Assembly (NCBI GenBank): GCA_051362555.1
Contig: CM120649.1
Span: 8,308,001 to 8,372,000 of the forward strand
Direction: 5' to 3'
DNA length: 64,000 nucleotides
Origin: Lingula anatina
Lineage: Eukaryota; Animalia; Brachiopoda
Shown: positions 3,001 through 42,784 of the stretch, in pieces
Numbering within the stretch: position 1 is the first letter of the stretch
How the letters are laid out: each line of letters starts with the position of its first letter
Translations under genes and position numbers: made by a program
The notes under the pieces: model-generated
Database searches by the model: none
What the model saw: only the letters and a program-made list of their open reading frames with translations
What the model was told of the DNA's origin: nothing

Positions 3001-6000
3001 TTGTATATAATTACGACTGTCCCAACTGAAAAATTAATATAAAGTATGCATTTTACTACACATAAAATCATGACCGTATGCTTATAACAGTTTATGTTAC
3101 AAAGCTGATGGTTGTTAAAATTAATATAAACAAACAGATATTCAAATATGATCACGTTTTCTTTCGTTAGGGATCAAGCACTAGGGATCATCTAAATCAT
3201 AACTTCACCGGCTCTGACCTCGAAGATGGTGACGTCACCGGCCCTGACCTCAATGATGGTGACGTCACCGACTCTGACCCCGTAGATGGTGACTTCACAT
3301 ACTTTGTTGAGTTCCGCGGCACACTGGTCTTTGTCACCCCGGTGCAGAATTTCGTAGATGGACTGGAAAAAGTAAAATGCCTGAAGCAGAAGATCGAGCA
3401 AGAGGTACGTAAATGACGGATCCACTATCCAGAAATAATAGTGAAACGAAATTACAACATTTCAAATAATTATTGAGTAAAATTGGTCCAAATCATTTTG
3501 GTCTCAAAACGTGTCAAAGCGTAACTATTACGCGAACTGTTGAGGAATATATACAAGATACCCATGGGCGTGACGCTATGGACAGTAACCCCACTGTGCC
3601 CGGCCTGCTGCGTGACGTGATTGGCAGTAACCCCATTGTGCCTGATCTGCTGCGTGACGTGATTGGCAGTAACCCCATTGTGCCCGGCCTGCTGCGTGAC
3701 GTGATTGGCAGTTACCTCTTTGTGCCCGGCCTGCTGCGTGACGTGATGGGCAGTAACACCACTGTGCCCGGCCTGCTGCGTGACGTGATTGGCAGTAAAC
3801 CCATTGTGCCTGATCTGCTGCGTGACGTGATTGGCAGTAACCCCACTGTGCCCGGCCTGCTGTGTGACTTGATTGGCAGTAACCTCTTTGTGCCCAGCCT
3901 GCTGCGTGACGTGATGGGCAGTAACACCACTGTGCCCGGCCTGCTGCGTGACGTGATTGGCAGTAACCCCACTGTGCCCGGCCTGCTGCGTGACGTGATG
4001 GGCAGTAACCCCATTGTGCCCGGCCTGCTGCGTGACGTGATGGGCAGTAAACCCATTGTGCCCGGCCTGCCGCGTGACGTGATTGGCAGTAACCCCATTG
4101 TGCCCGGCCTGTTACGTGACGTGATGGGTAGTAACCCCACTGCCCGGCCTGCTGCGTGACTTGATTTGCAGTAACCCCATTGTGCCCGGCCTGCTGCGTG
4201 ACGTGATGGTCAGTAACCCCATTGTGCCCGGCCTGCTGCGTGACTTGATTGGCAGTAACCCCATTGTGCCCGGCCTGCTGCGTGACGTAATTGGCAGTAA
4301 ACCCATTCTGATTGTGCCCGGCCTGCTGCGTGACGTGATGGGCAGTAACCCCATTGTGCCCGGCCTGCTGCGTGACGTGATTGGCAGTAACCCCACTGTG
4401 CCTGATCTGCTGCGTGACGTGATTGGCAGTAACCCCATTGTGCCCGGCCTGCTGCGTGACGTGATTGGCAGTAAACCCATTGTGCCCGGCCTGCCGCGTG
4501 ACGTGATTGGCAGTAACCCCATTGTGCCCGGCCTGTTACGTGACGTGATGGGTAGTAACCCCACTGTGCCCGGCCTGCTGCGTGACTTGATTTGCAGTAA
4601 CCCCATTGTGCCCGGCCTGCTGCGTGACGTGATGGTCAGTAACCCCATTGTGCCCGGCCTGCTGCGTGACTTGATTGGCAGTAACCCCATTGTGCCCGGC
4701 CTGCTGCGTGACGTAATTGGCAGTAAACCCATTCTGATTGTGCCCGGCCTGCTGCGTGACGTGATGGGTAGTAACCCCATTGTGCCCGGCCTGCTGCGTG
4801 ACGTGATTGGCAGTAACCTCATTGTGCCTGATCTGCTGCGTGACGTGATTGGCAGTAACCCCATTGTGCCCGGCCTGCTGCGTGACGTGATTGGCAGTAA
4901 CCCCACTGTGCCCGGCCTGCTGTGTGACTTGATTGGCAGTAACCTCTTTGTGCCCGGCCTGCTGCGTGACGTGATGGGCAGTAACACCACTGTGCCCGGC
5001 CTGCTGCGTGACGTGATTGGCAGTAACCCCACTGTGCCCGGCCTGCTGCGTGACGTGATGGGCAGTAACCCCATTGTGCCCGGCCTGCTGCGTGACGTGA
5101 TTGGCAGTAACCCCACTGTGCCTGATCTGCTGCGTGACGTGATTGGCAGTAACCCCATTGTGCCCGGCCTGCTGCGTGACGTGATTGGCAGTAAACCCAT
5201 TGTGCCCGGCCTGCCGCGTGACGTGATTGGCAGTAACCCCATTGTGCCCGGCCTGCTGCGTGATGTAATTGGCAGTAAACCCATTGTGCCCGGCCTGCTG
5301 CGTGACGTAATTGGCAGTAAACCCATTCTGATTGTGCCCGGCCTGCTGCGTGACGTGATGGGTAGTAACCCCATTGTGCCCGGCCTGCTGCGTGACTTGA
5401 TTGGCAGTAACCCCATTGTGCCCGGCCTGCTGCGTGATGTAATTGGCAGTAAACCCATTGTGCCCGGCCTGCCGCGTGACGTGATTGGCAGTAATCCCAT
5501 TGTGCCCGGCCTGCTGCGTGACTTGATTGGCAGTAACCCTACTGTGCCCAGCCTGCTGCGTGACTTGAATGGCAGTAACCTACTGTGCCCGAGTCAACTG
5601 CCTGACGTCAAGGGCAACAAACCCAACTAACAGTATAAAAAATTAAGAATATGCAATAATTTTGAACAGACTTTACTAGCGCACCCAGTGGTCAGAGAAT
5701 ATATAGACTCTGCCAACAGAAACTATTTTGGATCTTTATAAGGGCGAAATTACCAGTTAAATCTCTTCTTTTTTCCCAATAACTCGGTATAGTTGTAGTG
5801 AAGTGCGTCTCATGGCCCAACATTACACTTGGTGATTATTATTATAATTTTGTTTGTTTGTTTGTTTTACTATTAAAGGTTAATATTAGATTTCATAATT
5901 CTGAGAAAGGCATAAAAGACATTAAAATGTATTCTAAGAACTATATTCAAATGGAAATGTATGAACTGTAGTTGATAAATCAAAGAAATCACGTTTAAAA

Positions 6001-9711: not shown

Positions 9712-11255
9712 AACAAGGCAGAAAGCTGTCAAATGTACAGACAAAAGGCAAAAAAATAAAGATGCAGAAAACAGGCCATTTTGTCAATTTTGATACAATA
9801 ATAAATAATGCTTATAACAGCACAGTCAATGAACACTGAGCTTATTTGCAATATTAAACAACATTTACCTGCATAATTATCACTGATTCCTAATCATGTG
9901 ACACTGTTAATTTAGACTTTTACAAACTGTATCTGGCAGAGAGCTAAACCTATGGGAGTTTAAATTGAAATCTCAACATGTGTGTTTTATGTAATCTCAT
10001 TTAATGGCATCTTGAAACTTAATTAGGCAAGTGAATTCATAGCTCTGAACTTAGCTAGGTAATGCCCAAGGGACAATTACAGACTGACCATCCATTGTAG
10101 CCATATAACACCGAGAGCTATGTGAAAAAATTAATATTTCATAAAGAATCGCATTACTTCCAAAACAGAGAGCAATCACACTGATTTTCCCCACACAAGC
10201 TGCACTTCAGTCCTATTAATCTTTTTAGCAAGTTTGAAATCTTAAGTGACATAGTTTTCCCTTAATGGTCATCATGGCAGCAGTGTCCAAATTGGAATTT
10301 TTTAAAAACTTTTATGCAATATTACATAACGCTTAACAGTATTATGACCATCAATTTTTAATAATAAAATAAAAGTTTCATGGATGTTCAGAAAATGTAA
10401 CTAGCAAGGGTCTTCAAGTCCATGGGGGTTCAAAATCACACCTTGAAAATGCCAATATGTGAAAAATTAAATGTTCACCAAAACCTGTATAACTTCCAGA
10501 AAAATCAACCAATCACAATTGTTTTCCCGCTGTATTTAAGTCCTATGTTTCTTTCCTGTAAGTTTGAGAGGAGTTAGTGACATGTTTTTTTTATAATGCT
10601 CACTGCGGCGGCAGTGCCCAAAATAGGGTTTTCATCAATTTTGATGCAATACTAACAGTTTAGTCACCACCAATCTTTAATAATGTACTGAAGGTAACAT
10701 GGATATTTAGAAAAAGTGACAAACAAATATCTTCAGGCCCATGAAATTTTTAAGTAACAGCTTAAAAATGCTAATGTGAACACCAGAGATATCTCAACCT
10801 GTATTTTTAGAAAGATGATCCCTCCAGCGATTTTCAAGACAATAGGCTGACCGGTTTTCCTTGAAATATGTTATCAGTATGAAAAATAACAGCATAATTT
10901 TTGTAACAATGGTCTGATCAAGCTGATTTTCAAACTCGACCTGTATTTTAGTAAGATTGATCACTTCTGTGGATTTCAAGACAATAGACCATTCGGTTTT
11001 CCTTGAAATGTGTTATCAGTGTTGCATATGCTGAAACAAAAAAGAGAAAAAACAGTATCACTTCTGAAAAATGGACCAATCATGCTGATTTTCGAACTCG
11101 ATCTGGGTATTATGAATATTCATCAATATTCTGTAAGTTTCATGCCAAAAGGTAAAACGTTTTTCCATTTATCGCGTTATCGGTGAAAGTGCACGGCGAC
11201 GACAGACGCAGGTGACGGCTATATGTACAGAGACATCTGTGTCTGTACATAAAAA
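9712..11255 (-). mobile_element. Helentron-associated (HINE-like) non-autonomous element with internal tandem duplications
   Basis: Terminal hairpin ATGTACAGAGACA-TC-TGTGTCTGTACAT next to an A-run at 11223-11255; ATGTACAGAC at about 9732 is inverted relative to the outer hairpin arm; internal duplicated blocks at about 10100-10790 and 10830-11130. Confidence 0.45.
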
Positions 11256-11439
11256 GGGGCGCTTTAATGTTGTTATGTTGAATAGCAAATTGTTTAACAA
11301 TTAAATTTTTAAGACATTTAAAGCATTGAAGTTGAAAATGTGACGTATCGGATTCCTATGCCCTGGAGTGTTGCTAGCAATAAAACGTTTGTACAATTAT
11401 TTGGAAGTTTAATCATTTGGAGGCCGTCATAGAAGAAAC

Positions 11440-11758
11440 ATGGGTGCTGTCCATCTCATCCTCGCCGCACTTCTGTTTGTTCTAACATTTTGCCAAACTG
11501 CAGCCACGGAGGACGGAGAGAAAGGTAGATAAAATTGATTAGTCGTACTGCTTTTTATCATATTTATTTCTTGGTTGTTTATTTTTGTCGTCATTCAAAG
11601 TTAATGTATTCATTTACTTGATATTGTCGTTTGTACATTTGTTTTTATATGATTTGATTTGTTTTTATATGATTTGATTTATATGAAATCAAAATGAATT
11701 TGTATCCAAATTTGAGCTTGTGAAAATATATTGCGACTTAAATTTTCATTTTGCTCAT

Positions 11759-11819
<61 letters not shown>

Positions 11820-14800
11820 AAAGTAATTGCCATATTTAACAGACTATCCCCTCAAACTTAAATAACTGAAGTTTGTCTCTAAAATAAAACGAAATACTTT
11901 TGACTACTTAAGTACTGCTGAGTCCATCCAACTACCCAGGAGATGTTAAACTTTCTTAGAAGGCTGTAAATACCACAAATCAAATTGGGCTATGTTGTAT
12001 TATCAACATAAGACGTGTTTCTTACATGTATACTTAGTGTAGAGAGTCGTTAATCTGAAAATGCAGTGGATAAGAACATTTAAAATAATCAAGCGGCATC
12101 ATTGCAAAATAAAAAGAAAAAAACATCGATATTTTGGATTTTTACTGGGAGATTTCCGTCCAAATGAAAGTAATACAATTATATTTCAATCGCACCCGAA
12201 AAACATTTCAAGTATTTAATTTCATTATTTTATTAAAATTTGGCAATTCTGAGACAAAGTCATCATTTTGTTTTGGATGACATTTTTACTTTAACTGTGT
12301 TGCAATAAAATTAGTTTTGCACTCGTTTAAAAGTAAGGTCCACTCACACTACCATTAATTAGACTGTCAGAAGCCATATCCTCAAGACTCCAGGCAGTGT
12401 ATCCTCTGTACAAGACTCCAGGCAGTGCGACCATGCAGTCATACTGGCAAGGTACAGAACAACTCGTATGGCACTGGCAACCCGGCATAGACGCTAGACG
12501 CATAAAATGGCGACAAGTTGCTTGACTCAGTTCAAATTTACAACCCAGAACAGCAATGACAGAACTCGCGTGTACAGACGAGTCCAGATAGACGTGACCT
12601 GAGCGAGCTCATCAAGTGTGGCGGTGGTAGTGTAATGATACGTGGTGGGTTTTCATTACACCAACGCATTCCCCTTTAATGTTTATCTCACCAGATTCTT
12701 CTACAGTAATGAGATCCTGCCATTCCTCCGACAGATATGTCAGGGAGCCATTCTACAATTTGACAACGCACGTCTTCACCGTCCTCAAAAGTTGCCAGTG
12801 ATTTTGCAGAGGAACGTCCGCAGAATGGACTGATCACCCTATTCGCCCGATATGGACCCTTATGGGACCACTCAGTGCTATGATTTCAGCAAAATAACTC
12901 CGAACCGTAGATCTCAATAAGCTAGCTAGCTCAAGAAGGGAATTCGATTCCATGGCAGTAGCTCCAGACATTCACTACTCAATTGAGAGGCGTTGTGAAG
13001 CAAGTGTGGTTTCCAAAGGCGGACACACATGATTCTGAAAAGACTTTAAAGTTCTAAATTTAATTTTTGACCCTCTTTAATTTTACACCCATTAGCATAA
13101 TCGAGTTTATACTGTTGATTCGCCTTCAATTCCATATTTTTCCTCCCGCTCTTGGTATTCCGTTCAACTCTCCGATAGGGGTCTCTGTTGGCTGTTACAA
13201 ACGTAAAGGAGTGTTTTATTCAGTTTTGCGAAAAGCTACCGAGACTCCTTCCGGAGGAAACCTTATCCACTATTCTGTGTGGACACTGATGCAGAATACT
13301 CCAAAATTGCTAATATTTATCGCTTTGTGTTTTTATTAGTCTGTCGGACATAAACTGTGCAAGACTTGCGTTCCACTGGGATACATGCCCTAGCCGCGAA
13401 TTATCAAGGTTCGGGTAGGTCATTGCCTCCTGGGATACGCATGCGCCGAGAAATATTTCCCAGGGACCTGATAACATGCATTGCTTTCATACTGGAGCAA
13501 ATATGTAGTGCCAATAAATCACGAGTACATATATTATTGTGTTGAAAACATAGATGTTTTCTTTTCAGCAGAACTGAATTAATGGGTTTATGTTTTCTGC
13601 TATGGACGCCCTCTTGTATTACAAGGTGAATGGGCGTGTTATTGTAGATCCAAAATTCATGATATTCCCTTTGGAGTGACACTTTGAAAAAATAAATCGT
13701 TGATTAATTCAACACCAAAGGTGTAAACCAGTGACACCTTGAGATAGATTAATTCCCTTTTAAACGAGCAATAAATCATCTCAAAAGTCAAGTGTAAGGG
13801 GACACTCTTTCATGCATTGCGTAAATAATATTACTTGTGCGGTATCAACTTGAATCACCCGATTTATACTGCCTCCTCTCAATGACACGTTTGCCCTTTC
13901 CAAACACTGATTTGTGGTCTTCGCACTCATCCATTGTTACATTATTTATTCAATGGAAATTTAATAAAAGGCAGATTAATATATGCTTGATGGAGTGAAG
14001 GTTGACTGATAACTAATCACTATCTCGTCTTAAGGTGACCGTTACGTTAATGCAATGCGCTTTCACGTGAGAAAAATAAAGTAGTTGTTTACTATTCATC
14101 TCATTGTAGCGTACTGTGGCGAACCACCCCAAGTCCTGTTTGCATATCGAGTAGCCTCAGCAAAGAATTACAGCGAAGGCGAGAGAATCCGCTATAGTTG
14201 TAAAAAAGGTTGGTTCATGAAATTTAAAATGCGGGAAATGATGTATGTCATGTTTGGTGAATACAGGACTATAGACAATCGGGTTTTATCTTTAATGTGT
14301 TTGCGGATACTTGGAATCGATTGTGCATAATACAGGCTGGATAAGACAAGGAGAATGACTGTTAACATGTATGGTTTAAAATATAACTGTTTAAAAAAAC
14401 ATCCTTCTTTGTTGCCGGCGATTTCTAAGGGAATCATGTCAAAATACTTTTCACAATGCTATGGGAATTGGGCATATTTGCGTAACCACGGTGATATTTT
14501 TAACTATAAAGATATATTTTTTCCATGTTGTTTTTTTTTTAATTATTTTAGTCTACATATCTATAATATAAAAAACAAAATGGTGATTTTTTTCGTGCCT
14601 TCTAGGATATCAGCATGTTGCCGGATCTTCATACAAATTCTGTCACACGGGAGTATGGGTTGGGCATAACATTATATGTGAACGTAAGTAGAAAATAAAT
14701 GATTTACTTAAAAATCATCGCACAATGTCAAGGGTTGTAATGTTTGGATTAATTTTCCCTTACTGCGGTAACTATATATATATATCTTATTCTTATTTTC

Positions 14801-16761
14801 ATCACCATTTATTTGTGCAAACAAGTGCGTTTTCTTATTTATCAAAACATCTACAGAATATTATTATTGGACACTTATGAAGATTTTTTTTTTTGTGATG
14901 CGCATTTTTTGCAAGATCTCGCATAATTTCGTTTTTGTAGATTCGTTATTTAATGCGTTTGTATGACTGAATAGTATTCATTATTCAGAGTATCTCCAGA
15001 ACGTACTTATGCAGGTATCTCAATGAGCACTGCAGAATGCGGGTTAACATTGGCGGGTTTATTTTTGTACTCTTTCTATAGAAATAACACCATTAGCGGT
15101 CATTTTGGACCCCAGGGCTTTGGTTGACTACAAACGCCAATGTTGTATCTACGGGTGGCATTCACGCGGCGCAAACCAGTCGTGTGCGTCCTTGGTAATA
15201 TCGATGTGCGAGCCGTGCAAATCTGCCTTCCTGGAGTGTTGTGCGTACCAAGACGGGACCAAATACGACCTGCAGCACAGTAAGAAACCATGATGGTGCC
15301 ATTTATCTATTTAGAATTAGACAAGAATATCAAGCGACCATAAGCAGCAACGATATAGTTGTGCTTTTTGAATGCCATTGTGTCCAAAGTTTCGGGAGTC
15401 GAGTTTTCACTCTATATCGTTATACATTATATTTGTATACTTTTTATTGACTGTTTGAAGCGTTATCTAGAGAGTAAAGCATTTCGTATATTATATTATA
15501 TTATATTATATTATATTATATTATATTATATTATATTATATTATATTATATTATATTATATTATATTATATTACAGTGCACTGTGCTCACCCCCCAAAGG
15601 TGGCGCACGCTTACGTGTCGGCCCCAGATAAGTTTTATGAACATGGAGAGAAAGTTCACTACGCTTGTTTAAAAGGTATTTTCAAATGTGGCACTTAATA
15701 TTAAAAAGCAACAAAAAAGGCATAGATAAGATAAAAGGTACAAATATAGGATCTGATTTTTGACAGTAGCAATAGTATTGAACAGTATTAAATAGTATTA
15801 TGTAACTACATTCTCACACAGCAAATGTTCATACAAAGCCTTCCAAATGTCTTTTAACGTGTTCAAGTTACAAGAGATCTACAGCGAACGTCAAGTCTTC
15901 TTTCCAGAGACGAAAACGTATCTACACCGTTCCTTTTCTTTTCAAGGCTATCAGCAGACCTCCAACTCTGCATACAAAGTTTGTGAAAATGGAACATGGG
16001 CGGGACAAGACATCGTTTGCGAAAGTAGGTTATCATATAAATGCATATCATTCATTTTTTTCTGACAATTCCTTTTTTTGTGTGTGACTACCCCATATTT
16101 TTAACGTGCAATTGTTATAACGCACATTACGAGCTTAAAATATAATTGTAATTATAATTGAATTGAATAACGTAATGATTTAAAATGAAATCAAAACAAA
16201 GTTTTCAGTATTTGAATGCACATTCACTGAGAATAAAAATGGAGTCATTTGACTCTCTAGTCAGAGTCCGGCACCCCTTGACACTCATGGAGTTAATCTG
16301 ACCCCTATATAAGGGTCAAATTACCCCACTACCAGAGTCTTTAGACTCACTTATCAGAGTCAATCACCCCTGGCTCTCATGGAGTCAATTTGACTCTAAA
16401 ATCAGAGTCAAATTACCGGGGGCCAGTGTCTGACTGACCCCTTTCACCGACTCTCTTCACTCGCTGGACAGTAAGCCGCGTTTCAGTACTTGAGATGGCA
16501 GTGAGAAGACGGCGTGGAGAGAACAGTTTTCATCATCCTTTGTCAGTATAAACATTACTTTATTGGCCATAGTTGGTTTTTTGCATGAACAAGTGGTTTT
16601 CTGTGTGTTTCTACATGCAGAACTCGTGCACTTATTACTGGCCCTGGCTTTCAGTTGTCCACACCCTTTATGTGATACGTTGGTATTCAGGTCAGCAGGT
16701 TTTGTTACCAGGTTGTAGGTTTGACCCGCCAATGCACTGGGGGAGGTATGCTCACTCATTG

Positions 16762-16834
<73 letters not shown>

Positions 16835-18045
16835 ATGCTGTTTATTACCAGATTTACAAACTGTTTATTATTGCTAACGCAACTTCACATGCGATCGGAT
16901 GGCCTTGTGGTTAAAGTGTTATATGATGAATGATACCTGCTGTGGTCCCTCTTGGCACTCTTCCACTTAACTTTTTTCATAATGTGCCAAAAATCCCTTT
17001 ATATGGGGTCATGGTGACTCTTTTGTAGAGATAAATCAAGGGATTAAGGGATGTCTGAATGGAGTCAATTGTGACCCTCCTGTGGGGTCTGGGATGGCGT
17101 TACTCCATCGGAGTCAACTTGACTCCAATTGGGAGTTATTTAAGGCACCACTGCTGGACTCCAAGTTTGGAGTCACTTGGACTCCGATTTTATTCTCAGT
17201 GTTTCTTTTTAATAGGAAGTTCAAGCAGCATGGAATTCAGACAGTAAATGTACAAACTAATAAATATATTTTTCCTTCAAAACACACTAGTGGTCCAGGT
17301 ATAAATTCCGTGATACGCCCATTTAAATGGAAATCTGCTCTGCTTTTCCCAGTGATATTTGTATAAAAATTTTAAAAATGCATGTTCAAGTTGCCCTCTC
17401 TCATGAACAAGATGGACGTGGAATTTATTATTTTGTTAATTTCTTTGATTTCCGCCAAGCTCTATTAGATACTTAGATAGAAATATCTAGGGCAGCCATT
17501 TTTATATCTGTGCATTTTACAACCAGCTGTATATCATGTTAGGGTAACTTTGGCAAAATCCCCATACATTCAATGTAACAAAAGTGACGTATTTTGAGAC
17601 ACTACATCTCGAAAACGCCATGGGCTACAACCAAGGCAAAATATCATTCCATTTATACCTGTATATTACATTGTTTTAACTCATACTGATACGCTCTCTA
17701 TATTTAGGCATACATTTTTTATTTAAGTTGCTAGGACGGACATTCTGTATTTGGAATTGGATACAGACTATATTTAGTAAATCTCTCGATCAACTCTCTT
17801 TTTGTGCTGTTTCCTACACAGAGATTCTCCTGCCTGAAAAACCGGACGTGCATCCAGATGTACTGAAGGATTACATTCGGCAATGCTGTCTAACAGGGTT
17901 GAGAGTCGAGACCGGAAGTGAAAGCTGCGAGGAACTGTCTGTGGACATGTGCGAGCCCTGCAAGACCCCGTTCCTGAAGTGTTGCTTTGATAAAACCATC
18001 ACAATAGATGACCCAAGTCTTTACACCGGAATTGAAGAAAACTAA
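11440..18045 (+). CDS. Secreted protein SP-Sushi(CCP)-anaphylatoxin-like-Sushi-anaphylatoxin-like, 286 aa; exons 11440-11524, 14110-14208, 14606-14683, 15082-15279, 15577-15675, 15947-16024, 17822-18045
   Basis: Signal peptide MGAVHLILAALLFVLTFCQTAA; all six introns GT-AG and phase 1, total 861 nt. CCP1 CGEPP..YSCKKGY..C..G.W..IC; CCP2 CAHPP..YACLKGY..C.NG.W..VC; ANATO-like CCIYG..C..CEPCKSAFLECC and CCLTG..C..CEPCKTPFLKCC. Confidence 0.85.
11761..11814. repeat. (AT)n microsatellite
   Basis: Pure dinucleotide run. Confidence 0.95.
12330..13035 (+). mobile_element. Degenerate Tc1/mariner transposase relic in intron 1 of the Sushi-ANATO gene
   Basis: Fragmented motifs in order: GGGSVMIRGGF (cf. 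GGGSVMVWG), LQFDNARLH (cf. QQDNARPH), SPYSPDMDP (cf. SPDLNPIE), RRCEASVVSKGGHT (cf. RRC.AVI...GGHT); stops and frameshifts. Confidence 0.8.
15487..15573. repeat. (TATAT)n pentanucleotide microsatellite abutting a splice acceptor
   Basis: About 17 units ending immediately before CAG at 15574-15576. Confidence 0.95.
16225..17201. mobile_element. Non-autonomous CACTA/EnSpm-like TIR element (977 bp)
   Basis: TIRs CACTGAGAATAAAA...GGAGTC / GACTCC...TTTTATTCTCAGTG, TT on both flanks, many subterminal GAGTC/GACTC repeats; internal (TA)n at about 16764-16830. Confidence 0.75.
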
Positions 18046-19354
18046 TAGTATACATTTTATATTATATGTTTATTTATTTTTATTTGTTTATTTTATTTAT
18101 CATTATTATTATCATTATATCACAAGAAATATGCTACGATTTTTAAATCTGACTTACTCGGTTACGACCCTTGTCCAAACGGTTGAGTCTTCTCTTCTAA
18201 TTCAACTGTGAACTCTATAAAGACATTACAGAAGATCTTTTTAACTTAACAATTTTTAAGAGCATTCTAATGCATTTAATGATACTGAAAAGTTTATATT
18301 TCTCATGCAAAATGACCAGATATAATTTAGGTTAGTATAAAAATACAAGCAATGATGTCAAAGTCTTGTATAAAACATTCTTTTTTACTTGTTTAAATGA
18401 TCAGTAAATTATTTTTAAAACTTATGAATTTTAAATGTACTTTCACACGTTTTAGTCTCTCATAACCCTTAGTAGGGTGGGTTTTATTTTTTAACGTGAG
18501 ACGTTAATAATATCATAATAATTATTATCACTGATTGATAATAATGGCAAAGCTCCGTCTCTGTGCCTTGCTATTCTGAGTTGCGGAGTCTGTCAGTGAC
18601 TCTTTATTCTGATTATGATTACTATAATTATTATAACGATAATAATAAATTGACAGTAGCTATTGTAATTGAATTATACGAAGTTCTGTATTTCACGTGA
18701 CTCTCTTCTGAAAAAAAAAATTGATCCACTTACGTATACACAAGGCGGGGCTGAGAGCGCATATATCACTGCTGCAAAAACCTTCACAGGCTGCAGGGAC
18801 TGTGATAAATGAGATTAAATGCATGGATTTAGAAATTTAAAATACACGAATGAATTAAGCATGTATGAGCAGATAAATAAATTGTTGTCTAGATATTTAT
18901 GAGGAGTTATAATAACTGGAGATATGATTATTCCTTATACATGTATACTCTAACAAAATGTGTTAAAACTATTCTCTTTTCGAATACGTCTTACTCCAAA
19001 TGACAACACCGATATTTCTCTTCGGACTTTTTCTGGAAACGATGAAAATTGCAGGATTCAAAGCATCGCGACCAGACGTAGCGACGTTGGGCTAGTTATG
19101 AAGTTTTCACCCAGTAGCTGGATAATGGGTTATTGTCTCAATGGCTTTGGAGAGACAATTTCTTTGTAATAAAATTGATATTGCTAAAATATTCAGAAGA
19201 ATTATTATCATCATCATTATTTTATTCTTTATTTTATTTTTGTTTTTATTTTTATTCATATTTCCCTTCTTCTCCTTGTTAAAAGGGCAATAAGGGTATT
19301 TTATGCCATATGATATTCTAAAACTGCAAAACAAGGCTTGTCTGGAGTGAAAGT

Positions 19355-19505
19355 TGCGTTCACATGAAAAATCTATCTTCTAAAAATCTAAAAAATCTAT
19401 TTGCGGTACGTTGTGATCACGGTCTGTGCCCTGAATACCCCACGGCGTAATTACTGGCACCGCGAGCCAGTTACTTCCAAAACTGTAATTAATTCTTGGC
19501 GCTGT
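19355..19505. mobile_element. Truncated copy of the palindromic MITE at 47509-47762
   Basis: TGCGTTCACATGAAAAATCTAT...CTGTGCCCTGAATACCCCACGGCGTAATT...GTTACTTCCAAA matches that element in the opposite orientation. Confidence 0.8.
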
Positions 19506-20716: not shown

Positions 20717-23333
<2,617 letters not shown>

Positions 23334-24019
23334 ATGTGCAAGAGTAACTACGTTTGAAAACAAAACAAGTAGGGCATTTATTTTGGGCAATGTTCTGAGA
23401 AGTCAAAAGTTTGTATACATGTATAAGAATATATTAGATAATTTAAATTATGAAATATCAGAAATAAATGAAGAGAAATATTTCTTAGAAAATGAAGTGA
23501 CTTCGTACAGTATGAACTATGCTGTGTATTGGTAAATCATATTTTCTGTATTTTAAATGGCACAAAGTGACGCTTAGATACATGTACACCCGATATAATA
23601 AGGCAAAGGTCTACTTGTGCAACATTTATGTTGATATGGAAAGAGAACTGAAGTGTGAAACTGTGAACTCTGATTCCAAATACATTACGAATAAATTTTA
23701 GGTTTTGTACACCTTTGATGTGTTTCTATAATTTCACAAATCCAACACAATAATAAGAACACAATAACAGAAACAATATTGAACTGTCAAGCATGTTATT
23801 TGTCTTTACTAAATCTTAAAACCCCGGCTGTAGCTAATAAATACATGTTCATGCTTAGCACAATGTGGTTGAATAAATAAAATGCAAATCGTTCCATAAC
23901 TACAGCAACTGCTTTCTTTTGTGTATGGCGGACAATGGAAACTGAACTAAAAGCCAACTAAACTAAAACTAAAACTTCTTTACAATTTATTATCAGATAT
24001 TTTTTAAAGGTCTATATCT

Positions 24020-24420
24020 TTGTCTATTAGAATGAACATTTGGCGTCGAGAGGTTGTCAGTTTTTGACAGAGAATTCGCCTCAGAATTCGCAGACCGATT
24101 CGTGGACAACGGTGATGAATGCGATAGTTGTGACAGAGTCACCGCTCGCCGCTTTCGTGATGGGTGAGACGTCGTCGCTCTCGATCAGCAGACATGTTTG
24201 GCGACGTAGGAAACATTGAAATCGCTGAAAGTTCATAATGATCCAATGCCCCACCCAAACAACAACAAACAAAAGCACGAGAATCGCAGCTAGAATTCTA
24301 AAATCCTGCCTTACAATGAGGTCTCTATATCATAGGATTTTCAAAGAGCTTCATGGTGAACCTTCTAACAAATGCGATAGTTGTGACAATGTTACCGCTC
24401 GCCGCATTCTTCGGACAACT
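24020..24420 (-). pseudogene. Decayed fragments of the last exon of the vWA membrane gene (related fragment at about 19670-19715)
   Basis: Minus-strand translation IESDDVSPITKAASGDSVTTIAFIT aligns with VESDIASSIGIAASSDAVTTTAFVT at 33680-33755; TGCGATAG.TGTGACA...ACCGCTCGCCGC occurs at about 19677, 24120 and 24373. Confidence 0.65.
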
Positions 24421-25027
24421 CTCAAATGGTCACCCTTTGTGCCTCAGACGATACCAAAATCACTGAAAACTCAGAATGATAAATGCTTGTTTGTCCTGTG
24501 GGCAAAAGCACGTGGGCTTGTGAATAAAATCACAAAAAGGGAATTTTCCTTTCAAAGTGTTAAGTTTTTATTGCACTAATATTTAAAGATAAATATGTGA
24601 GATTAAAGACACTGAAAAAGCTTTTTTGCCAAATGTCAGCATTCATGATGTATGGACATTCCTCCTTATTATTTCCAAGTAATATTTCCTAAATTACAAT
24701 TATGCACTGAATTATCATCCTGATTGCGTTTCGGACCAAAATATGTTTTCAACTGATCATCACAGCCAACAATGTGAGTCTGATTATAAACTGTTACATG
24801 TATATAACATGCTGAAAGCAACATTCCTAACTGTTGAGATTCGGGTTTAAACTGCGGCACTGTCACAATATTTTCGAGTTAATTATGAGCAAAATCCGGG
24901 TTTAAGGTTCAGTCCTGGAACAAAACTCCATAATTAAGTATAATTGCGTCCTCGCTCAGACTAACGGTTCATTCTACCGGTACAAGTGCCAGACGCTACT
25001 AGTCCTGCGTGCAGGAAATCGTGTACC

Positions 25028-28744
<3,717 letters not shown>

Positions 28745-30886
28745 ATGTGCTAGAGTAATTATGTTGAAAAAACAAGAAAATTTAGGACTCCCCCCATTTA
28801 GCAATATACCAAGACTTAGAAAAATTGCATAGGGTGTACTAAATGTGTCTGAATGTAATGAAGTGAGGTAGGTCAGGCTAGAATGTGTAAAATTATGTTT
28901 ATAGTTATGCAATGATGATTTATCTTCAATATTTTCATGCAATTTTGCTTCATCATCCTTACATCGTATCTGTCGAAAGAGACCTACAAAGAAAACATTT
29001 CAATTTGAAACGAGGAAATTTATATCTTAATTGGTTTCATGTATATTGTCACTTCGCTGCAGAATAAATTGTCAAACAACTGATGCTGTTTGATCATTTG
29101 ATTTGATTTTTGGCAGAAAATATATCTATTAAATTGATATTTTTCTCCTCCTCTTGCAAGAAACAACCTCTCATTGCCGTGTGTTTGTACCAAAACTGTT
29201 ATCGTTTTTAACTCACGATGCAACTTATTGACCACATTTGTCATACTTATGTCAACACGATTGAGCGACGACTTGATCTTATTGACCGAAATGTACACAA
29301 CAGGGAGATATATATATCTTATACCGGTATAATGTCCGAATCGTCCGATAAGCGGACGCGAATTCATCGTGACACATATCTGATAATTAAATTTGTTTCA
29401 AGTCGTTTGGGGCCGATATTAGTTTGAACAGTACGTAGGCGTTATGATCCCTTTTATTCTCTTAAAGATATGTTATTGTGAATATAAGTTTTTTCCTCCT
29501 AATACCATAACATTGAGTTGTGTTCTTAGATTTTTCTAAATCTGTTTCGGTTTATTTGAATTTTATATATTTTTCTTGTACGGAAGCCGCTATCTCCAAG
29601 TTAGTCCTGCAAGTACTGCTACATGTAAAAGCAGTTAGGGTGAAATAGGTCGAGGATTGAGGGCTATATAATCACGTGTCCCATTTTCTATTAAGATGCC
29701 AGCAGATGTCCAAGTTCCATTTATACCATTTGTTGCCGCGACAGTTTACAAGCAGTTGGTGGCTGTAAGAGATTGATAAGACCCTGTAGTTATTGATATA
29801 CGTCCTCAAACTTAAAGATGAGAAAGACCACGAAGCAGGGGTTCTTTTCACTTGCATTATATATATGTACTTTGTTAGGATATGGTCCGATAGGTAAGTC
29901 GCAGTAAAATAATATAATGGTGAGATATTTTAGGTGGCAGTACATGTAACTGATATACGTAGTTTGAATTAAGAAGAGAAGGATCATAGACGCACTTTTC
30001 AATTACAGCAGCCATGAGAACATGTTCCAGACAAAAGTAGGGGGTAGTTTATTTACTTGTTCTTGAGTATTGCAGACAAATGGAACTTCTTCAATCATGT
30101 TCGAACTGTATATGAGCCTTGGCTTCAGGATCCACCGCGTTTCACAGGTACAAAATTTCCCAATTTTTCCTTATCATTTCCCTTATGGAAGACAAGAATT
30201 CTGGGATAATAATTTGACATTTTTCTTGTTTTTAATTTTTATTAAGATTTTACAGGCAATAACATATAAACAACCGCTGTTTGGTATGGTCACAAATCGG
30301 GAAAGAAAAAAATTGACCCAAAAAAAAAAAACAGATTAGATTTTCCCTGATTTGAGGACCTTTTCTTAAATTCCCTGAAGCCATATTTCAGGTTTTCTTT
30401 TGTTTCCCTGCCACTTATATAGAAAGCCATTAATGTACTTCCAGTTCACACCCCCCCCTCCACCTTTTTATATATCATGTTATATTTGTGTGAATATTCC
30501 AAACTTAAAACTCTTGGAATGAGAGAAGAAGGGAAGAGGTAACTGCATGTTTTTGTATCTCATGGATGTCTCCATGCAAAAGAAAAAAGACATATTTGGA
30601 GCTTCAGAGGATCACGTGGTGCCAAGCCACTAACATTTTGGTTCGACTTTTTCCTCTAAAAAATAATGTTTGTACGATGGTATTTTCAGAGACAGCGGTG
30701 GCGAGTGGAAATGGTGCGGAAGGTAAATCATATTATTTTTTGTTAAGTGCGTCTCACTACGTCTACACTATAGATCTAGTGTTTTGATTTATCTATAAAA
30801 TTAATGAATACGGAAAATGAAATAAAATTAGTCTTTACTTAGAGACTAAAAGCATCATAAGACATTTTGGCCCATCACCTATGGAT

Positions 30887-32093
30887 CTTGGTCACGTGAA
30901 TGGCAATTATGCGCCAGAATCTGACGCTCAAGAAACCGGACGCTGTCGTAAACCTAGGCGCGTTTGAGTGTGGAGGGGGCGTTGGTTCCTGATGTAAACT
31001 ACTTCTCGTACTTTGCGGCTGTACCGTACTCTTCGTCCTTCTCAAGTATCTTAAGGCCCGGTTCCACTGGCGTTTAGGATATATTTCGCATGAAGTGCGC
31101 ACAAAATTGGTTGATATTCGCTAAACATCCACAATATTCATGCTTGTATCATTCGGCCAGCATCCGCACACGTCCGTAATTATCCGCAGAGGCACTTTTT
31201 TCCGTTCCCAAGTTTTTTTATCTGCCCACAATTTTGGTTGCAGATGAGATGCGCAATACATTCGCAAAACAGACGCAATACATATGCAACACATGCGCTG
31301 TTTTCTGCTCTTATCCGGAATAGGAGAGCATGTACTGAGTATGTAAACCGTGTGTAGAGCGCCTCTATCACGTCCATATCACGAACTAAGATAATATATT
31401 GCGAATATTACGTCAGGATTTAAGCGTTTCTGTTGCGTCTGATTTGCGTCTGATTTGCGGACATCTGCAATAGCATCCGCTTTTATTTGTGATACATACA
31501 CAATACATTATCAATGTGTCCGTAATTCACACTGTTCTTATCAGCACGCTATTGTGGAAAATTTGTCATTTTTGGACAAATCTGTTGCGGATGACAATGA
31601 AGGTCCGGATCCCAAGAAAATCTGTAGCCTCAATTCTCTCTCAATTCATCCTCAATTCATCCTCTCGTCAGTGTGACCGGGCCTTTAGTATTTTGTAGGC
31701 GGGCAGTAGGGGTGCAGATCTTGAGATGTACGTTAGACAATCCCTTTAGGATTGACAAATTTAACACGTTCTCTTAATCGAGTTCCAAGCGTTTTCTCCC
31801 TTTCTTCGATGTTAAAGTGTGTTGGATTTTGCTCACATGAGACTTTATATACCGATTGGAGCCTTTCCATCCTACAAGTTGTTGCCTCAAAGTGTAGGTT
31901 TCACGAATGAATTAAGACCGTGAGTCTGGGACCTGTGTGAGTGTCGGATAGAGTGTCCACTCTTAGGTGGGGTTAATGGATGGCGAGTGTCCAATTCCCA
32001 TAGTTGTTGACTCTGAGTGCCTTGCGTATGTGTCTCACTTCATAAGCTTGGCCCCGTTTCCTTCTGCGCAAAATCACCATTCACGTGACCAAG
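30887..32093. mobile_element. Putative TIR element hosting a nested MITE
   Basis: CTTGGTCACGTGAATGG at 30887 and CCATTCACGTGACCAAG ending at 32093. Confidence 0.5.
31054..31684. mobile_element. PIF/Harbinger-type MITE
   Basis: TIRs AGGCCCGGTTCCACTG / CAGTGTGACCGGGCCT flanked by TTA on both sides (31051-31053, 31685-31687). Confidence 0.8.
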
Positions 32094-32270
32094 GTGTAAA
32101 GAACGCCGTGGTTGGCTGATATAATTTAGTCTCCGGAGTAAAAAAATAAGTCTGTGCTATTACCCTATCTACAAACCATGAAAAACCTCATTCATGGCAA
32201 TATAAAATGCTTAGGAATGTAATTTAATTTCCCCTTGATTGAAACCTATTACTGCTACTTTATATTTCAG

Positions 32271-33969
32271 TATGCGATGAATCAGATGTTGCATTTCTGC
32301 TAGATGTAATCGGAGATCCGAGAGACGCACCGATGATTCAACATTTCATTGGGTCTTTGGTGAACGATTCCTTCAACATAGGACCGGACAACGTCAGCAT
32401 TGCTATCGTTTCTTTTATCCCGTCCATGGATGGCCTTATAAGACTAGCCGACGAACAATCATATGAAAATATACTGGGCAGAATCCATGCTATACGCGTG
32501 CCTCCAAATAATTATCTTCTACACCTTGTTGGAAGTCAAACTCACCGAGCGCTTGAAGTCGCCCGGACGACATTACTTAATCCACTGGATCCTGACGGAG
32601 GGAGATTAAATACCAGTAAAGTAGCTGTCGTTATTAGCACTGGTATCGAAACTTATTTTTGCAAAACTGTTCAAAATGCCCAGGCTGCAAAACTACGAGG
32701 TATTGAAATTTATGCGATAGGGGTCGGAAGCAAGACAAGCCTACTCCCAGAGTTGCAAGCAATTGTGAGTCCACCGGTGCATACCCATGCTTTTATAGTA
32801 GAATCCTTCGATGGACTGCTTGAATTGCCGGTGAATTTCTCCGAAGCTTTCTGTTCAGGTAATTAAAACACAACTCCACTTAGTCGAATCCACTTAGTGT
32901 GGAATCTGCAACTTATGTTTTTGCTAAGGAGGTTATTTTTTTTCAAGCCCCCTTTGTCTGTTTATCACCAGCCTGCGCAAAAAAAGTTGTGGATTGATTT
33001 TGAAATTTTCAGGATCGGTCAATAATTAGCTAACTTCTAAAAAAGTGATACGATTTTGATAGTGATCTTGATCACCATCTGCGTCATCACCATCGCGAGA
33101 TGCATTCAGTGACCTTGAACCGAAAATCAAGGAGGGTGTCGTAAGGTCGTGGTGCAGTGGATGTGCTCTCTACTACCACACGTTATAACCACTAAGTCCT
33201 TGGCGAAAGTCTGCGCTTTCTGAGTGCTTTTCTAGTTTCCATTTACTTTGTTTAATCCTTAGAGGAATGCCTTAAAAGTTTGTTGGTCACGTAATTTATT
33301 TAACACTTGATAATATAAGGCTAGATGGGCCATGAATGTGCGTAGCTGTAGGGCAGATGTCACATAATATTTAAGGTAAAAGACGGTTCCTGCCTCCTGC
33401 AGTGTACATGAACGCAAGAAGAATAGATAACGTTTATTAAGCCGGGAGAGGGGTTGCCTTTTCCCCTTGTAACCCCTACACCCGCTAATGTAAATCGCCT
33501 TCTCATATTTATTTTAGTTTCCAACAAAAGTGCACCATGGCATCCAGAAACAACCAGCTGGTACAGATACTACCGAACAGCTTGCCAAGAGCACTTTACT
33601 ACGCAGGGTATCACAACAGCCACATCAGATCTTTCTGGGTCGACAGCAATATTCATGTCATCTGCGTCACCAAGGATGTCTGTTGAGAGCGACATCGCCT
33701 CATCCATCGGGATTGCAGCGAGCAGTGACGCTGTCACAACTACCGCATTCGTTACTTCGTTCACCAGGACGCAATATGCAAATACTGACATGAAACCTCT
33801 GGCAGATATCGGTGACGGTCCTTCGTCGCCAAAGCAGGATATTGGAATTCTAATTGGGTCAATCGTACCTTCGCTTGCTGCAGTATGTGCTGGTGTCATT
33901 TTTTTGTTGTGTTTCTTGAAGAAAAAGAAACGCAAGGCAGAGGTACAGCCGAAGGAAGAAGGGCCTTGA
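32271..33969 (+). CDS. Type-I membrane protein: vWA domain, S/T-rich stalk, TM helix, short basic tail; exons 32271-32858 and 33518-33969, candidate upstream exons 30076-30147 and 30690-30722; start unresolved
   Basis: SDVAFLLD..FNIGPDNVSIAIVSF..THRALE..KVAVVIS..GIEIYAIGVG..ELQAIVS.P (vWA); TM IGILIGSIVPSLAAVCAGVIFLLCFL followed by KKKKRK; phase-1 GT-AG junction. Confidence 0.85.
32915..33236 (+). mobile_element. Diverged HINE-like element, same family as 19911-20179
   Basis: GCTAAGGAGGTTATTTTT...GAAATTTTCAGGA...CCTTGGCGAAAGTCTGCGCTTTCTGAGTGCTTTTCTAGT. Confidence 0.65.
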
Positions 33970-34578
33970 ACATCAAGTGCGCAGATGTTTATTCCATCAA
34001 TCTTAGAGTTGTATTTCGTAATCAATTTTTACGTACACTCAGATTCAGATTCTGGAGCACGTTTGTTAGCTCTAAGCGGAGATATACGTTAAGAAAACAA
34101 TCATTACGGTTCAAGATTGTTTTATTATTGCGCAAGTACCGGTAGTCCTTTGCTATTTTAGTATGCAAAATGACACCGTGTGCATGAAATTATCTCGAAC
34201 TTTCAAATTCAGTCTTTTGATTTATGTATATTGATAAAAGAATCGACACGTCATTTCTCATCAGATATCTTACAATGGCATAAGCATTTGCATTATACCT
34301 TTTACTTGAGTAAAGGTACGAGGTTATTATACCGGATGTATCTAAACGTCCTATGTGCTATTAAAGGAAACAGAACGTGTAAGCTGTCAATACAAAACAT
34401 ATTTTCATATTTTACGAAGTGAATGAATTTTGTACGAAATAGCCTATTTTCTTTATTTCAGATATTTCAGGATTAAGAGTTTCTGACATATTCTTATACA
34501 AGCGTTTGACTTCTTAAAACGTCACCAAAAAGAAATGTCATATATATTTTGTTTTTCAACATAATTACTCTATCACAT

Positions 34579-37331
<2,753 letters not shown>

Positions 37332-39097
37332 GGCGCCCGATTTCCTGCACACAAGATTAGTCGCGCCTGGCGCTTGTGACAGAATGAACCGTTAGTCTAA
37401 ACGAGGACGCAATTATACTTGATTATGGAGTTTAGTTTCAGGTTTGAACCTTAACCCCGGATTTTGCTGAATTCTAAAGTATTTTCACAATGCCGCACCT
37501 TATCCCTGGAACTCAACAGACCACGGACGTTTCTGTTTTTTCTGATAACTTTATCATCAGTGTCACAGTGTTGGCTGTGATCAGTTGAAACCATATTTTG
37601 GTCTAAAACGTGATCTGGATGCTTAGAAGTGATAACATAATTTGAAAATATCATATTTTGGAACATGTCCCACAAGTTGGCCTCATTATCAGCGGTTTGT
37701 CGTAGGCTCTCTTTTGCAAATTAAAAGTTGCGCATGCAAAACAGTAAAATGAAAAAGCATGTTTATAAAGACATACTCTCAGTAGGATATCCACTCTAGT
37801 AATCAACCGTGGTCCGCAGTCGCTGTGTCATTTCGGTTACTGACATAAAGGATCCCCCCACACCCAAAAACTGTTAACTTATTGCTGCAGACAAAAGATA
37901 GCCGGCTGTGCACGTGTCTGTGAAGACACAATTATTTTGCTGCAGTGCAGGACCGCCAGTCTAAATATCCAAGCACAAGCACGTTGTTAGTATTGACCGT
38001 AATGAATAACACTGGCTTAGAGGGTCTGGGTCACAGAGGTTACTGATACATGGGGTTTCTCTCTAACCCCCACCCCACCCCGCCTCCACCCCTTGTAACA
38101 AACAACTTACATGTAACTGTTCTGTAGCTGACAAGGTCAAGGTCAGTTGTCAAGGTCAGTTGTACATACTGTACTTACTGTCGTTTTGTAACTTCTCTGG
38201 TTACTTATTTTGCAGTCGGTTTTCGTAGTGCACATGTTTTTATTCAAACTCCATATTACTACTACGTGTAAGCTTCCATCGACGACATCCGATTTGCCTC
38301 TACTTTCTCCCACTTTTCACCTCGAGTGAGAACACACCAGCCAGAGGAAAAAATACTTTTAAAACGTAATAATTACGCTTGATGATGCCACGAATTGAAG
38401 AAAAATGAAGGTGCCCCATGGGTTTCGAGGTAGCACCTTACCCCTCCTTCCCTCTTCTTTTTACTACAAACATAGCCCAAAGAGTAACTTGGGACAAAAC
38501 CCAACAAATTCCAAGCCTTAAATCAGAAAATGTGTTCTGCGTATGACAGTCAAATTAATCGCGTATATTGTTTCATATTTGACGAGAGAAGAAGTGTTTT
38601 TCCTTAGCCTCGCCAGTTGGCAAGATATTTTATAGTCCATTCAAAAATGACATTAATTTGTACGACAGTGAGCTCCGATGTTCCAGTTGGTTTTTGTTGG
38701 CATAAATGTAAGTTCATAAGTTCTTTCCAAAGGTCAAAGGCCAAAGATGAATTAACTTTGTTTAAATCAGTATACACCCGTAAACACGTTAGATATAATA
38801 ATACGCTAGCTGCACAGGTATGTTTTAGGGTTGTGTATATATACAATTTGAACTCCCCTTTTTAACATGGTACAAACTAGCATCTACAAAATCGGTGCTC
38901 TTCATATACGTAAAACAATCCAAGCCCTGTTCTAGACAAAAAAATTGATGCATCATCTGTCTAAAAATACCGAGACTGTAAGTCCCCATTGTACGCTTAC
39001 AGAAAAAAGACACACTATGAATGAATTTTATCATTTAAACCGCCTTCATTGTTTCACCTGGTAGAGTGCCGCTTGTTCTCTGGACCACGAGGTCGAC

Positions 39098-42000: not shown

Positions 42001-42784
42001 AGTCACCCCCAATATGTCTAGAACCACTGGCGCCGTGCCAACCGAAGCTACGAGAACAAATTTGACCACCGCCGCGGAGACGGCTATCGCACCGAGTGCT
42101 GATGATCTGCCACAGTCAAGTGTAGTCTATGGGACACTCGAGGTTAATCCTCCTACCCTGCAACTTAACCCAGTGACAGATGAAGGTGGGAGTGCATAAC
42201 ACGTCCTCACAACCTTAGTAATTCGAAAGAAAATTATTGATGAGTAATAACCTACACTAATTGTTATCATTTTTATTCAATACTAATCTTTATTTTAACA
42301 GTTAATTAACCATTGCCTTGATTTATTTGTCTACACTTCCATAGCATTCAAGCTAAAGGCATTTGGTACGAATTGCATTCCCCTGTTAGGGACGTTACCT
42401 GTATAAATTGCCCGACATACATGTACTTCAATATGTCATGTTTAAATTGTAAAAAGAAACATCAGAGGTCACGCATGGGGGCTGTTAATAGCGATGCTTG
42501 GTAATAAATTGCTGTCAAATGAATGGGATGTTAAACGCCTTCTGGTAAAATGTATCCAATAAAGATTAAGATAATGCTGACAATGGGAATAATTTAGGGA
42601 AAAGCGTATAGTTCGATCAGAACTCTCCTCGCGGATTATTTCCCGCTAAACGTTAACTAACATCGGCATTGTTTGAAAGGGGTCTTGAACAAAAAGAACC
42701 AGTGTCATGATGGCAATTATACCCGCCAACATTGACAATTTCCCGGAAGGAGGATTCCCTCGCACGTCCACGTCACCCACCCTG

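What the first reader, a model, noticed from the sequence alone, without database searches (positions are those of the whole stretch)
11440..18045. Stand-alone secreted protein made only of alternating Sushi (CCP) and anaphylatoxin-like domains
Seen: seven phase-1-linked exons splice to 286 aa: signal peptide, CCP, CC..G..C..C...F..CC, CCP, second such domain. Established: anaphylatoxin (ANATO) domains are known from complement C3/C4/C5 (released by proteolysis as C3a/C5a) and fibulins, and CCPs are typical of complement regulators, factor B and MASPs. I do not know of a small protein composed only of these two complement-type modules. Inference: a directly encoded C3a-like signalling, antimicrobial or regulatory molecule in an invertebrate. 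There is no LGLAR-like effector tail; a KR sits just before the first ANATO (DYKRQCC). The ORF track shows only fragments, so automated annotation could miss it.
Basis: partly seen in the sequence, partly recalled or inferred. Interest (0 to 1): 0.88.

Follow-up and report, generated by a model that had tools for sequence, protein, structure and literature searches.

The report
Anaphylatoxin module reused in lamp-shell protein
A lamp-shell (Lingula) gene with seven predicted exons encodes a small, likely secreted protein that alternates two Sushi binding modules with two modules related to the inflammation signal C3a; these lack C3a's cut sites and trigger tail but carry a spare cysteine, so they likely work as links that bundle the Sushi arms rather than as an alarm signal.

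Summary
The gene is real. Seven GT-AG, phase-1 exons give 286 aa: signal peptide, Sushi, ANATO, Sushi, ANATO. It is 95% identical to the RefSeq Lingula anatina model XP_013400808.1 ('complement factor H'), so annotation found the gene and missed only the ANATO modules. A 69% identical paralogue exists. ANATO homology holds: a three-module profile hits human C3a at E 6e-8, and the model has the expected helices. The C3a-like signal reading is poorly supported: no C-terminal Arg, no RxxR site, no first helix in the model, net charge +1/-2, and the KR lies inside the module and is absent from the second copy. New here: every module carries a seventh cysteine (C130, C256; M-C-E-P-C), and the closest relatives found are five tandem ANATO repeats in a Lingula chitin-binding/EGF protein. 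ANATO has therefore likely become a mobile module in Lingula. Best reading (0.45): an uncleaved adaptor whose ANATO modules link by disulfide, as in fibulin-2, and present the Sushi arms multivalently. No spliced reads were seen in 8 runs; only the paralogue had reads. I found no description in 10 literature searches, but the main Lingula immunity paper was unavailable. The scan had not noted it before.

The parts
11440..11524 (+). Exon 1: ATG and predicted signal peptide (aa 1-28)
   Evidence: the only strong hydrophobic stretch is at the N-terminus, no C-terminal membrane anchor
14110..14208 (+). Exon 2: first half of Sushi/CCP 1
   Evidence: (PF00084 E 0.0011 for the exon alone)
14606..14683 (+). 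Exon 3: second half of Sushi/CCP 1
15082..15279 (+). Exon 4: ANATO-like module 1 (C108-C141) on one phase 1-1 exon
   Evidence: (PF01821 E 0.099)
15207..15209 (+). Codon of the seventh, non-canonical cysteine C130 (M-C-E-P-C)
   Evidence: (repeat D4)
15577..15675 (+). Exon 5: first half of Sushi/CCP 2
   Evidence: (PF00084 E 0.0018)
15947..16024 (+). Exon 6: second half of Sushi/CCP 2
17822..18045 (+). Exon 7 (coding part): ANATO-like module 2 (C234-C267), acidic 19-aa tail, stop
   Evidence: (PF01821 E 0.0016, 19.8 bits)
17950..17952 (+). Codon of the seventh, non-canonical cysteine C256
   Evidence: (repeat D4)
18644..18649 (+). First AATAAA after the stop; candidate polyadenylation signal (untested)

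Best explanation
The gene encodes a likely secreted, likely uncleaved adaptor in which two anaphylatoxin-type modules, each with one spare cysteine, likely act as disulfide-linking units that bundle the two Sushi modules into a multivalent binder. Shown: exon structure, module order, ANATO homology, seventh cysteine, missing release sites and effector Arg. Inferred: six cysteines per module pair as in C3a (C108-C133, C109-C140, C122-C141). That leaves C130 and C256 free to join each other (closing the chain) or another chain (dimers or longer chains). The Sushi arms then bind an extracellular partner, either a complement C3-type protein or a matrix/mucus component; the partner is not identified. 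Inferred origin: the ANATO module sits on a single phase 1-1 exon and was shuffled, in the lingulid line, into at least two unrelated architectures. The Sushi-Sushi-ANATO three-exon cassette was then duplicated within the gene, and the whole gene duplicated again.
For: The seventh Cys is present in 8 of 8 modules of the four sequences examined (two genes, so four independent modules) and in 0 of 5 modules of the nearest outside relative. Fibulin-2 is a precedent: its ANATO region is a homodimer joined by an unpaired Cys (C500) in the loop before the module's last helix (PMC11220139, passages). That Cys lies 8 residues after the preceding structural Cys, as C130 does after C122. The closest relatives found in an exhaustive profile search are five tandem ANATO repeats, with 13-15 aa linkers, inside Lingula XP_013379695.1, a chitin-binding/EGF/TIL protein where a released anaphylatoxin is implausible. 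The model lacks the first helix of C3a/C5a, as fibulin-2 modules do. No release or effector motifs. The mature chain has an even Cys count (22).
Against: No disulfide or oligomer was measured. In sequence the modules score closer to C3a (35.6 bits) than to fibulin-2 (14.1 bits), which favours a complement-related role, although C3-family scores range from 13 to 36 bits. In fibulin-2 the C500 bond is not needed for dimerisation. The C-E-P-C motif could instead be a redox or thiol-exchange site. None of the four Lingula accessions occurs in the searched shell-proteome supplement, which gives no support for a shell-matrix role. The gene had essentially no reads in 8 runs.
Confidence: 0.45

Rival explanations
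1. Complement regulator or decoy: the Sushi modules dock on Lingula C3/C3b, and the C3a-like cores occupy the ANATO site of C3 or bind a haemocyte anaphylatoxin receptor without activating it.
For: Both module types are complement-type. The best solved-structure hits are C3a/C3 (E 6e-8) and CR1/factor H. Brachiopods have C3 and factor B (PMC11312191, passages). C3a without its last Arg does not bind C3aR, and C5a-desArg is much weaker (PMC4443744, passages), so a tail-less core fits a non-agonist.
Against: Single Sushi modules match factor H/CR1 only weakly (best per-module E about 0.006), and the high totals come from repeat number. The two Sushi modules are 69 residues apart, not tandem. C3a-desArg loses C3aR binding altogether, so a decoy would need another binding mode. 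The nearest ANATO relatives are in a non-complement protein.
Confidence: 0.25
2. One reading: a directly encoded precursor that is cut to release C3a-like chemotactic or antimicrobial fragments.
For: C3a is the top sequence and Foldseek hit. Bivalve C3a-like subunits are chemotactic and are cut at non-consensus sites (PMC8960428, passages). The paralogue's cores are cationic (+5 each).
Against: The C-terminal Arg is highly conserved from cnidarian to vertebrate C3-family ANATO and is absent here: neither tail after the last CC contains Arg. No RxxR site; KR is internal and not conserved; cores are +1 and -2.
Confidence: 0.1
3. Thiol-exchange capture protein: the C-E-P-C motif at the start of the last helix is redox-active and forms covalent bonds with targets (microbial surfaces, matrix proteins) held by the Sushi arms.
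For: C-x-x-C at a predicted helix start (helix 47-55 of the exon-7 model), conserved in 8 of 8 modules. The likeness to thioredoxin-type motifs is recalled, not tested.
Against: E-P-C-K is also invariant in the five six-Cys modules of XP_013379695.1, so it belongs to the module. The second Cys is expected to be tied in a structural bond. The fold is not a thioredoxin fold.
Confidence: 0.08
4. A rarely used or decaying duplicate: the paralogue (XP_013400834.1 type) carries the function.
For: Exon depth about 0 in 8 of 8 runs laid; the only exonic reads seen (5, run X6) belong to the paralogue.
Against: Intact frame and splice sites here and in a second assembly. All 22 mature Cys are kept and the 14 differences touch none of them. 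Tissues are unknown and only 6-30% of each run was read.
Confidence: 0.1

Closest known systems
Lingula anatina XP_013400808.1 ('complement factor H', automatic name); paralogues XP_013400834.1 and XP_013407710.1 ('zona pellucida sperm-binding protein 3 receptor')
   Same: Same gene (272 of 286 identical) and same architecture; paralogues 69% and 67% identical to the RefSeq protein.
   Different: Database names and precomputed domains record only Sushi. No paper naming the searched accessions was found.
Anaphylatoxins C3a/C4a/C5a (ANATO of thioester complement proteins)
   Same: Six-cysteine core; profile E 6e-8 to human C3a; Foldseek top hits C3a and C5a (prob 0.92 and 0.90, E about 1).
   Different: Not inside a C3-type precursor; no first helix in the model, no C-terminal Arg, no release sites, a seventh Cys, loop two residues shorter than in C3a, not cationic.
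Fibulin-1/-2 anaphylatoxin-like modules
   Same: ANATO used as an uncleaved module of a secreted protein; no first helix; unpaired Cys in the loop (fibulin-2 C500); 8r5w Z 4.1, rmsd 2.1 A over 44 residues, 34% identity.
   Different: No EGF array or fibulin C-terminal domain. The modules are single and separated by a Sushi module, not fused in one three-module bundle. Weak sequence score (E 0.31).
Lingula XP_013379695.1 ('fibrillin-1', automatic name): CBM14 x5, EGF, ANATO x5, TIL
   Same: Nearest ANATO relatives found: 28-41% identical, shared E-P-C-K-x-x-F-L-x-C-C.
   Different: Six Cys only, a shorter first loop, five tandem repeats, no Sushi, 1122 aa.
C4b-binding protein / ZP3R (sp56) and factor H-type regulators
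   Same: Works-like analogy (recalled): Sushi arms made multivalent by a small helical, disulfide-linked module. The Atlas listed a Sushi + C4bp_oligo cluster at 0.87, a lead only.
   Different: No C4bp_oligo match; only two, non-adjacent Sushi modules.

Membership tests
ANATO domain (PF01821) | Six cysteines spaced CC-x-C-x-C-x6-CC | tested here: met
   Both modules: CC-x12-C-x10-C-x6-CC plus one extra Cys
ANATO domain (PF01821) | Pfam gathering score 21.4 bits | tested here: not met
   19.8 and 14.0 bits for the exons, 16.5 for P0001, 18.2 for P0002; the full model 1-36 is covered each time
ANATO domain (PF01821) | Significant profile similarity to solved ANATO domains | tested here: met
   Two-module profile: C3a E 1.2e-4, and 21 of 22 PDB hits are ANATO-bearing. 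Three-module profile: C3a E 6e-8, and 36 of 36 hits are ANATO-bearing.
ANATO domain (PF01821) | Disulfide-tied helical bundle | tested here: inconclusive
   Exon-7 model pLDDT 73, though only 2 of 5 models scored above 60. Foldseek ranks C3a/C5a first with E >= 0.9. VIA best Z 5.3-5.5 (C5a), tied with an unrelated chain. Consistent, weak on its own.
Anaphylatoxins C3a/C4a/C5a | Released from a thioester (C3-type) precursor between basic cleavage sites | tested here: not met
   286-aa stand-alone frame; no RxxR; KR lies inside the module and is absent from module 2
Anaphylatoxins C3a/C4a/C5a | Effector tail ending in Arg | tested here: not met
   No Arg after the last CC of either module in this gene; conservation of the Arg from PMC8960428 (passages)
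Anaphylatoxins C3a/C4a/C5a | N-terminal helix 1 (four-helix bundle) | tested here: inconclusive
   Pro-rich coil in its place in both models, but that part has low pLDDT
Anaphylatoxins C3a/C4a/C5a | Chemotactic or antimicrobial activity | not testable with these tools
   Needs assays; core charge +1 and -2 argues against cationic killing
Sushi/CCP (PF00084) | Four Cys plus Trp, score above the gathering cut-off | tested here: met
   56.3 bits against 20.7, two stretches
Factor H / regulators of complement activation | Run of three or more directly tandem CCPs (recalled) | tested here: not met
   Two CCPs separated by 69 residues; per-module E >= 0.006 to factor H and CR1
Factor H / regulators of complement activation | C3b binding, cofactor or decay activity | not testable with these tools
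Fibulins | Calcium-binding EGF array and fibulin C-terminal domain | tested here: not met
   No EGF or Fibulin_C hit at E <= 5; the frame ends 19 aa after ANATO 2
Fibulins | ANATO-mediated dimer through an unpaired Cys (fibulin-2) | not testable with these tools
   Spare Cys is present; the bond needs biochemistry
C4BP / ZP3R | C-terminal C4bp_oligo domain (PF18453) | tested here: not met
   No hit for P0001 or P0002

The most novel reading that the evidence does not exclude
A stand-alone, non-activating C3a mimic: brachiopods freed the anaphylatoxin module from C3 and tethered it to Sushi arms, making a soluble, disulfide-linked complement regulator or anaphylatoxin-receptor decoy of a design not described in any animal, with an acidic and a cationic paralogue dividing the work.
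Probability: 0.2. Interest if true: 0.82.

Novelty: new variant of a known kind. Interest (0 to 1): 0.52.

Why it matters
ANATO is described from C3/C4/C5 and fibulins (recalled; consistent with all ANATO-bearing PDB hits). Here it occurs in two further architectures in one animal, both hidden behind misleading automatic names and under Pfam's cut-off. That makes it a likely exon-shuffled mobile module and suggests that ANATO is under-counted in invertebrates. The 30-kDa protein is a natural test of what the anaphylatoxin core does without its effector tail: linker, decoy or ligand. It bears on how complement signalling and fibulin-type matrix use of the fold are related.

Tried and rejected
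No whole genome is held for this window, so paralogue position and Lingula C3/fibulin could not be compared.

RNA: no RNA holder listed. 8 of the 9 same-species runs were laid (X5 was not), at 6-30% of each run. No junction of this gene was seen. In one search only 15 of 79 joints were displayed, but exon bins had depth 0 except one at 0.13; there were no joints.

Full-length AlphaFold2 on a 3-sequence alignment failed (pLDDT 42); only its helical parts were searched.

Complex prediction of ANATO1 with ANATO2: no verdict (score 0.02, alignment not used); not evidence either way.

ESM Atlas: features gave only Sushi clusters for the whole protein and no usable hit for module 2. Its structure search listed fibulin-1/-2 at TM about 0.55 among unrelated helical hits.

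Dropped rows: 5 of 7 hits of the exhaustive search (P0004, P0006-P0009) are HYR-repeat proteins that match without the CC motifs; three carry bacterial names.

The word-index search is lossy: one search missed the paralogue. 'Only in Lingula' is therefore not shown.

Rejected: KR as a cleavage site; a longer, membrane-anchored or fibulin-like extension (the frame stops in exon 7, as in the RefSeq model); a second copy in the window.

C3-type versus fibulin-type origin stays unresolved: sequence favours C3a, structure ties. The Lingula-only tree has no outgroup.
Full report
Observation. The seven exons are in the sequence with canonical borders, and all six introns are phase 1. Joined, they give 861 nt, 286 aa and a stop. 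The order is signal peptide (hydrophobic stretch only at the N-terminus), Sushi (exons 2-3), cysteine module (exon 4), Sushi (exons 5-6), cysteine module (exon 7). Exons 2 and 5 are both 99 nt and exons 3 and 6 both 78 nt, and the two halves align end to end, so the gene is a duplicated three-exon cassette. The six-Cys spacing occurs twice in the window's six frames; 0 of 100 shuffles gave two matches and 1 of 100 gave one. No second copy lies in the window.

Identity. Exon 7 retrieved P0001, RefSeq XP_013400808.1 'complement factor H' of the brachiopod Lingula anatina, 286 aa. It equals the spliced product at 272 of 286 positions without gaps, and no cysteine differs. The window is thus from a Lingula, and annotation has the gene but only the Sushi label. 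A full-length search gave 2 hits of 504 candidates: P0001 and a 69% identical paralogue, XP_013400834.1, on a contig of the same length. XP_013407710.1 differs from that paralogue at about three residues and may be an allele.

Expression. No RNA holder was listed. I laid 8 of 9 same-species raw RNA runs, 6-30% of each. No junction of this gene was seen, and exon depth was essentially zero while neighbouring repeats were covered. The only clear exonic signal was 5 reads in run X6 on exon 7. They carry F268V and a loose end that translates to the paralogue's C-terminus, so the paralogue is transcribed. Splicing of this gene rests on sequence logic and the independent RefSeq model, not on reads. 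Tissues are unknown.

ANATO homology. Pfam scores are just under the cut-off (19.8 and 14.0 bits against 21.4). A profile of the two modules searched against PDB sequences gave 22 hits at E <= 10; 21 are C3, C4, C5, cobra venom factor or fibulin-2, led by C3a at E 1.2e-4. With a third Lingula module added, 36 of 36 hits bear ANATO: C3a at E 6e-8 (35.6 bits), fibulin-2 at E 0.31. AlphaFold2 on exon 7 gave helices 11-28, 35-39 and 47-55, pLDDT 73 for the best of five models; three of the five were near 42. Foldseek ranked C3a and C5a first but with E about 1. VIA-align gave C5a Z 5.3 (rmsd 5.6, 56 aligned), tied with an unrelated transporter, and fibulin-2 Z 4.1 (rmsd 2.1, 44 aligned, 34% identity). 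The fold evidence alone is weak; with the sequence evidence the homology is secure. Whether the module came from C3 or from a fibulin is not settled.

Why not an anaphylatoxin. The C-terminal Arg is highly conserved in C3-family ANATO from cnidarians to vertebrates (PMC8960428, passages), and C3a without it does not bind C3aR (PMC4443744, passages). Neither module of this gene has an Arg after its last CC, and there is no RxxR. The stretch where helix 1 would lie is Pro-rich coil in the models (low confidence there). Core charge is +1 and -2, against +5 and +5 in the paralogue. Against this: bivalve C3a-like fragments are cut at non-consensus sites and are chemotactic, so unusual processing is not excluded.

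(1) All 8 modules of the four sequences have a seventh Cys, eight residues after the third canonical Cys, in M-C-E-P-C. (2) An exhaustive search of 1.84 billion representatives returned 7 proteins at E <= 0.001. Five are HYR-repeat proteins without the motif and were dropped. The other two are P0001 and Lingula XP_013379695.1, named 'fibrillin-1', which has five chitin-binding CBM14 domains, EGFs, a TIL domain and five tandem six-Cys ANATO repeats 28-41% identical to ours. A last word-index search with the three-module profile gave 3 hits of 765 candidates, all Lingula. These searches cannot see single-module relatives and brachiopods are thinly sampled, so the range is unknown.

Mechanism. 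In fibulin-2 the ANATO region is a homodimer, joined by an unpaired Cys in a loop and also by non-covalent contacts, and its modules lack helix 1 (PMC11220139, passages). By analogy I infer that C130 and C256 join the two modules of one chain, or join chains, so that the Sushi modules are displayed multivalently; in logic this resembles C4b-binding protein (recalled). This is inferred, confidence 0.45. The partner may be complement C3 (brachiopods have C3 and factor B; PMC11312191, passages) or a matrix component. The rival that the cores themselves engage C3 or an anaphylatoxin receptor as a decoy gets 0.25, a released agonist or antimicrobial 0.10, a little-used duplicate 0.10, and a thiol-exchange role 0.08. 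Four Lingula accessions were absent from the searched supplement of a shell-proteome paper, and one list there names three other Sushi proteins (PMC13425148, passages and supplement search; I saw 2 of 16 PF00084 rows).

Surroundings. Downstream lie fibrinogen-related, VWA, D8C and F5/8-type exons, a neighbourhood of secreted and lectin-like genes. No complement gene was recognised among the 20 ORF pieces scanned; this does not discriminate between the models.

Novelty. Ten literature searches (listings only unless stated) showed no description of a Sushi + ANATO protein or of the searched accessions. I also saw passages of PMC9835746 and PMC5094078 and a supplement search of PMC4595640, with nothing relevant. 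The main Lingula immunity paper (Gerdol et al. 2018) is not held; I saw only its citation, and it or its supplements may mention these genes. The scan's own notes hold no look-alike. Verdict: a real gene with an apparently undescribed arrangement of known modules. It is not a member of the anaphylatoxin, factor H or fibulin families. New variant of a known kind, interest 0.52.

Noticed in passing
P0005 = XP_013379695.1 (not in the window): Lingula protein named 'fibrillin-1' is a CBM14 x5 / EGF / ANATO x5 / EGF / TIL mosaic with five unannotated tandem ANATO repeats (aa 604-818); a chitin-binding ANATO protein worth its own study.
   Followed up: partly
P0002 / P0003 (paralogue, not in the window): Paralogue has cationic ANATO cores (+5 each, mature pI 8.5 against 5.9 here) and is the copy seen in RNA reads; a better candidate for antimicrobial tests.
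   Followed up: partly
window 12380-13050 (intron 1): Broken, frameshifted reading frames with motifs recalled as Tc1/mariner transposase-like; a 45-aa piece had no Pfam hit.
   Followed up: partly
window 11000-11260, 16230-17200 and 19350-19500: Dispersed repeats covered by RNA reads at mostly 88-95% identity, very deeply for the first and last.
   Followed up: no
window 21814-36459: Cluster of fibrinogen-related-domain exons on both strands, at least three genes.
   Followed up: partly
window 32243-33969: VWA-domain exon followed by a Ser/Thr-rich stalk and a likely membrane helix with a basic tail.
   Followed up: no
window 39065-46352: Likely secreted gene with an 845-aa Thr-rich mucin-like exon followed by uromodulin-type D8C exons.
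   Followed up: no
window 49944-59969 (- strand): Tandem F5/8-type (fucolectin-like) exon pairs.
   Followed up: no
window 61311-62546 (- strand): 412-aa uninterrupted frame with a D-x-D motif and no Pfam hit at E <= 1; possibly an unclassified glycosyltransferase exon (inference).
   Followed up: partly
window 3470-5630: Tandem repeat array with long open frames on both strands; coding status unknown.
   Followed up: no
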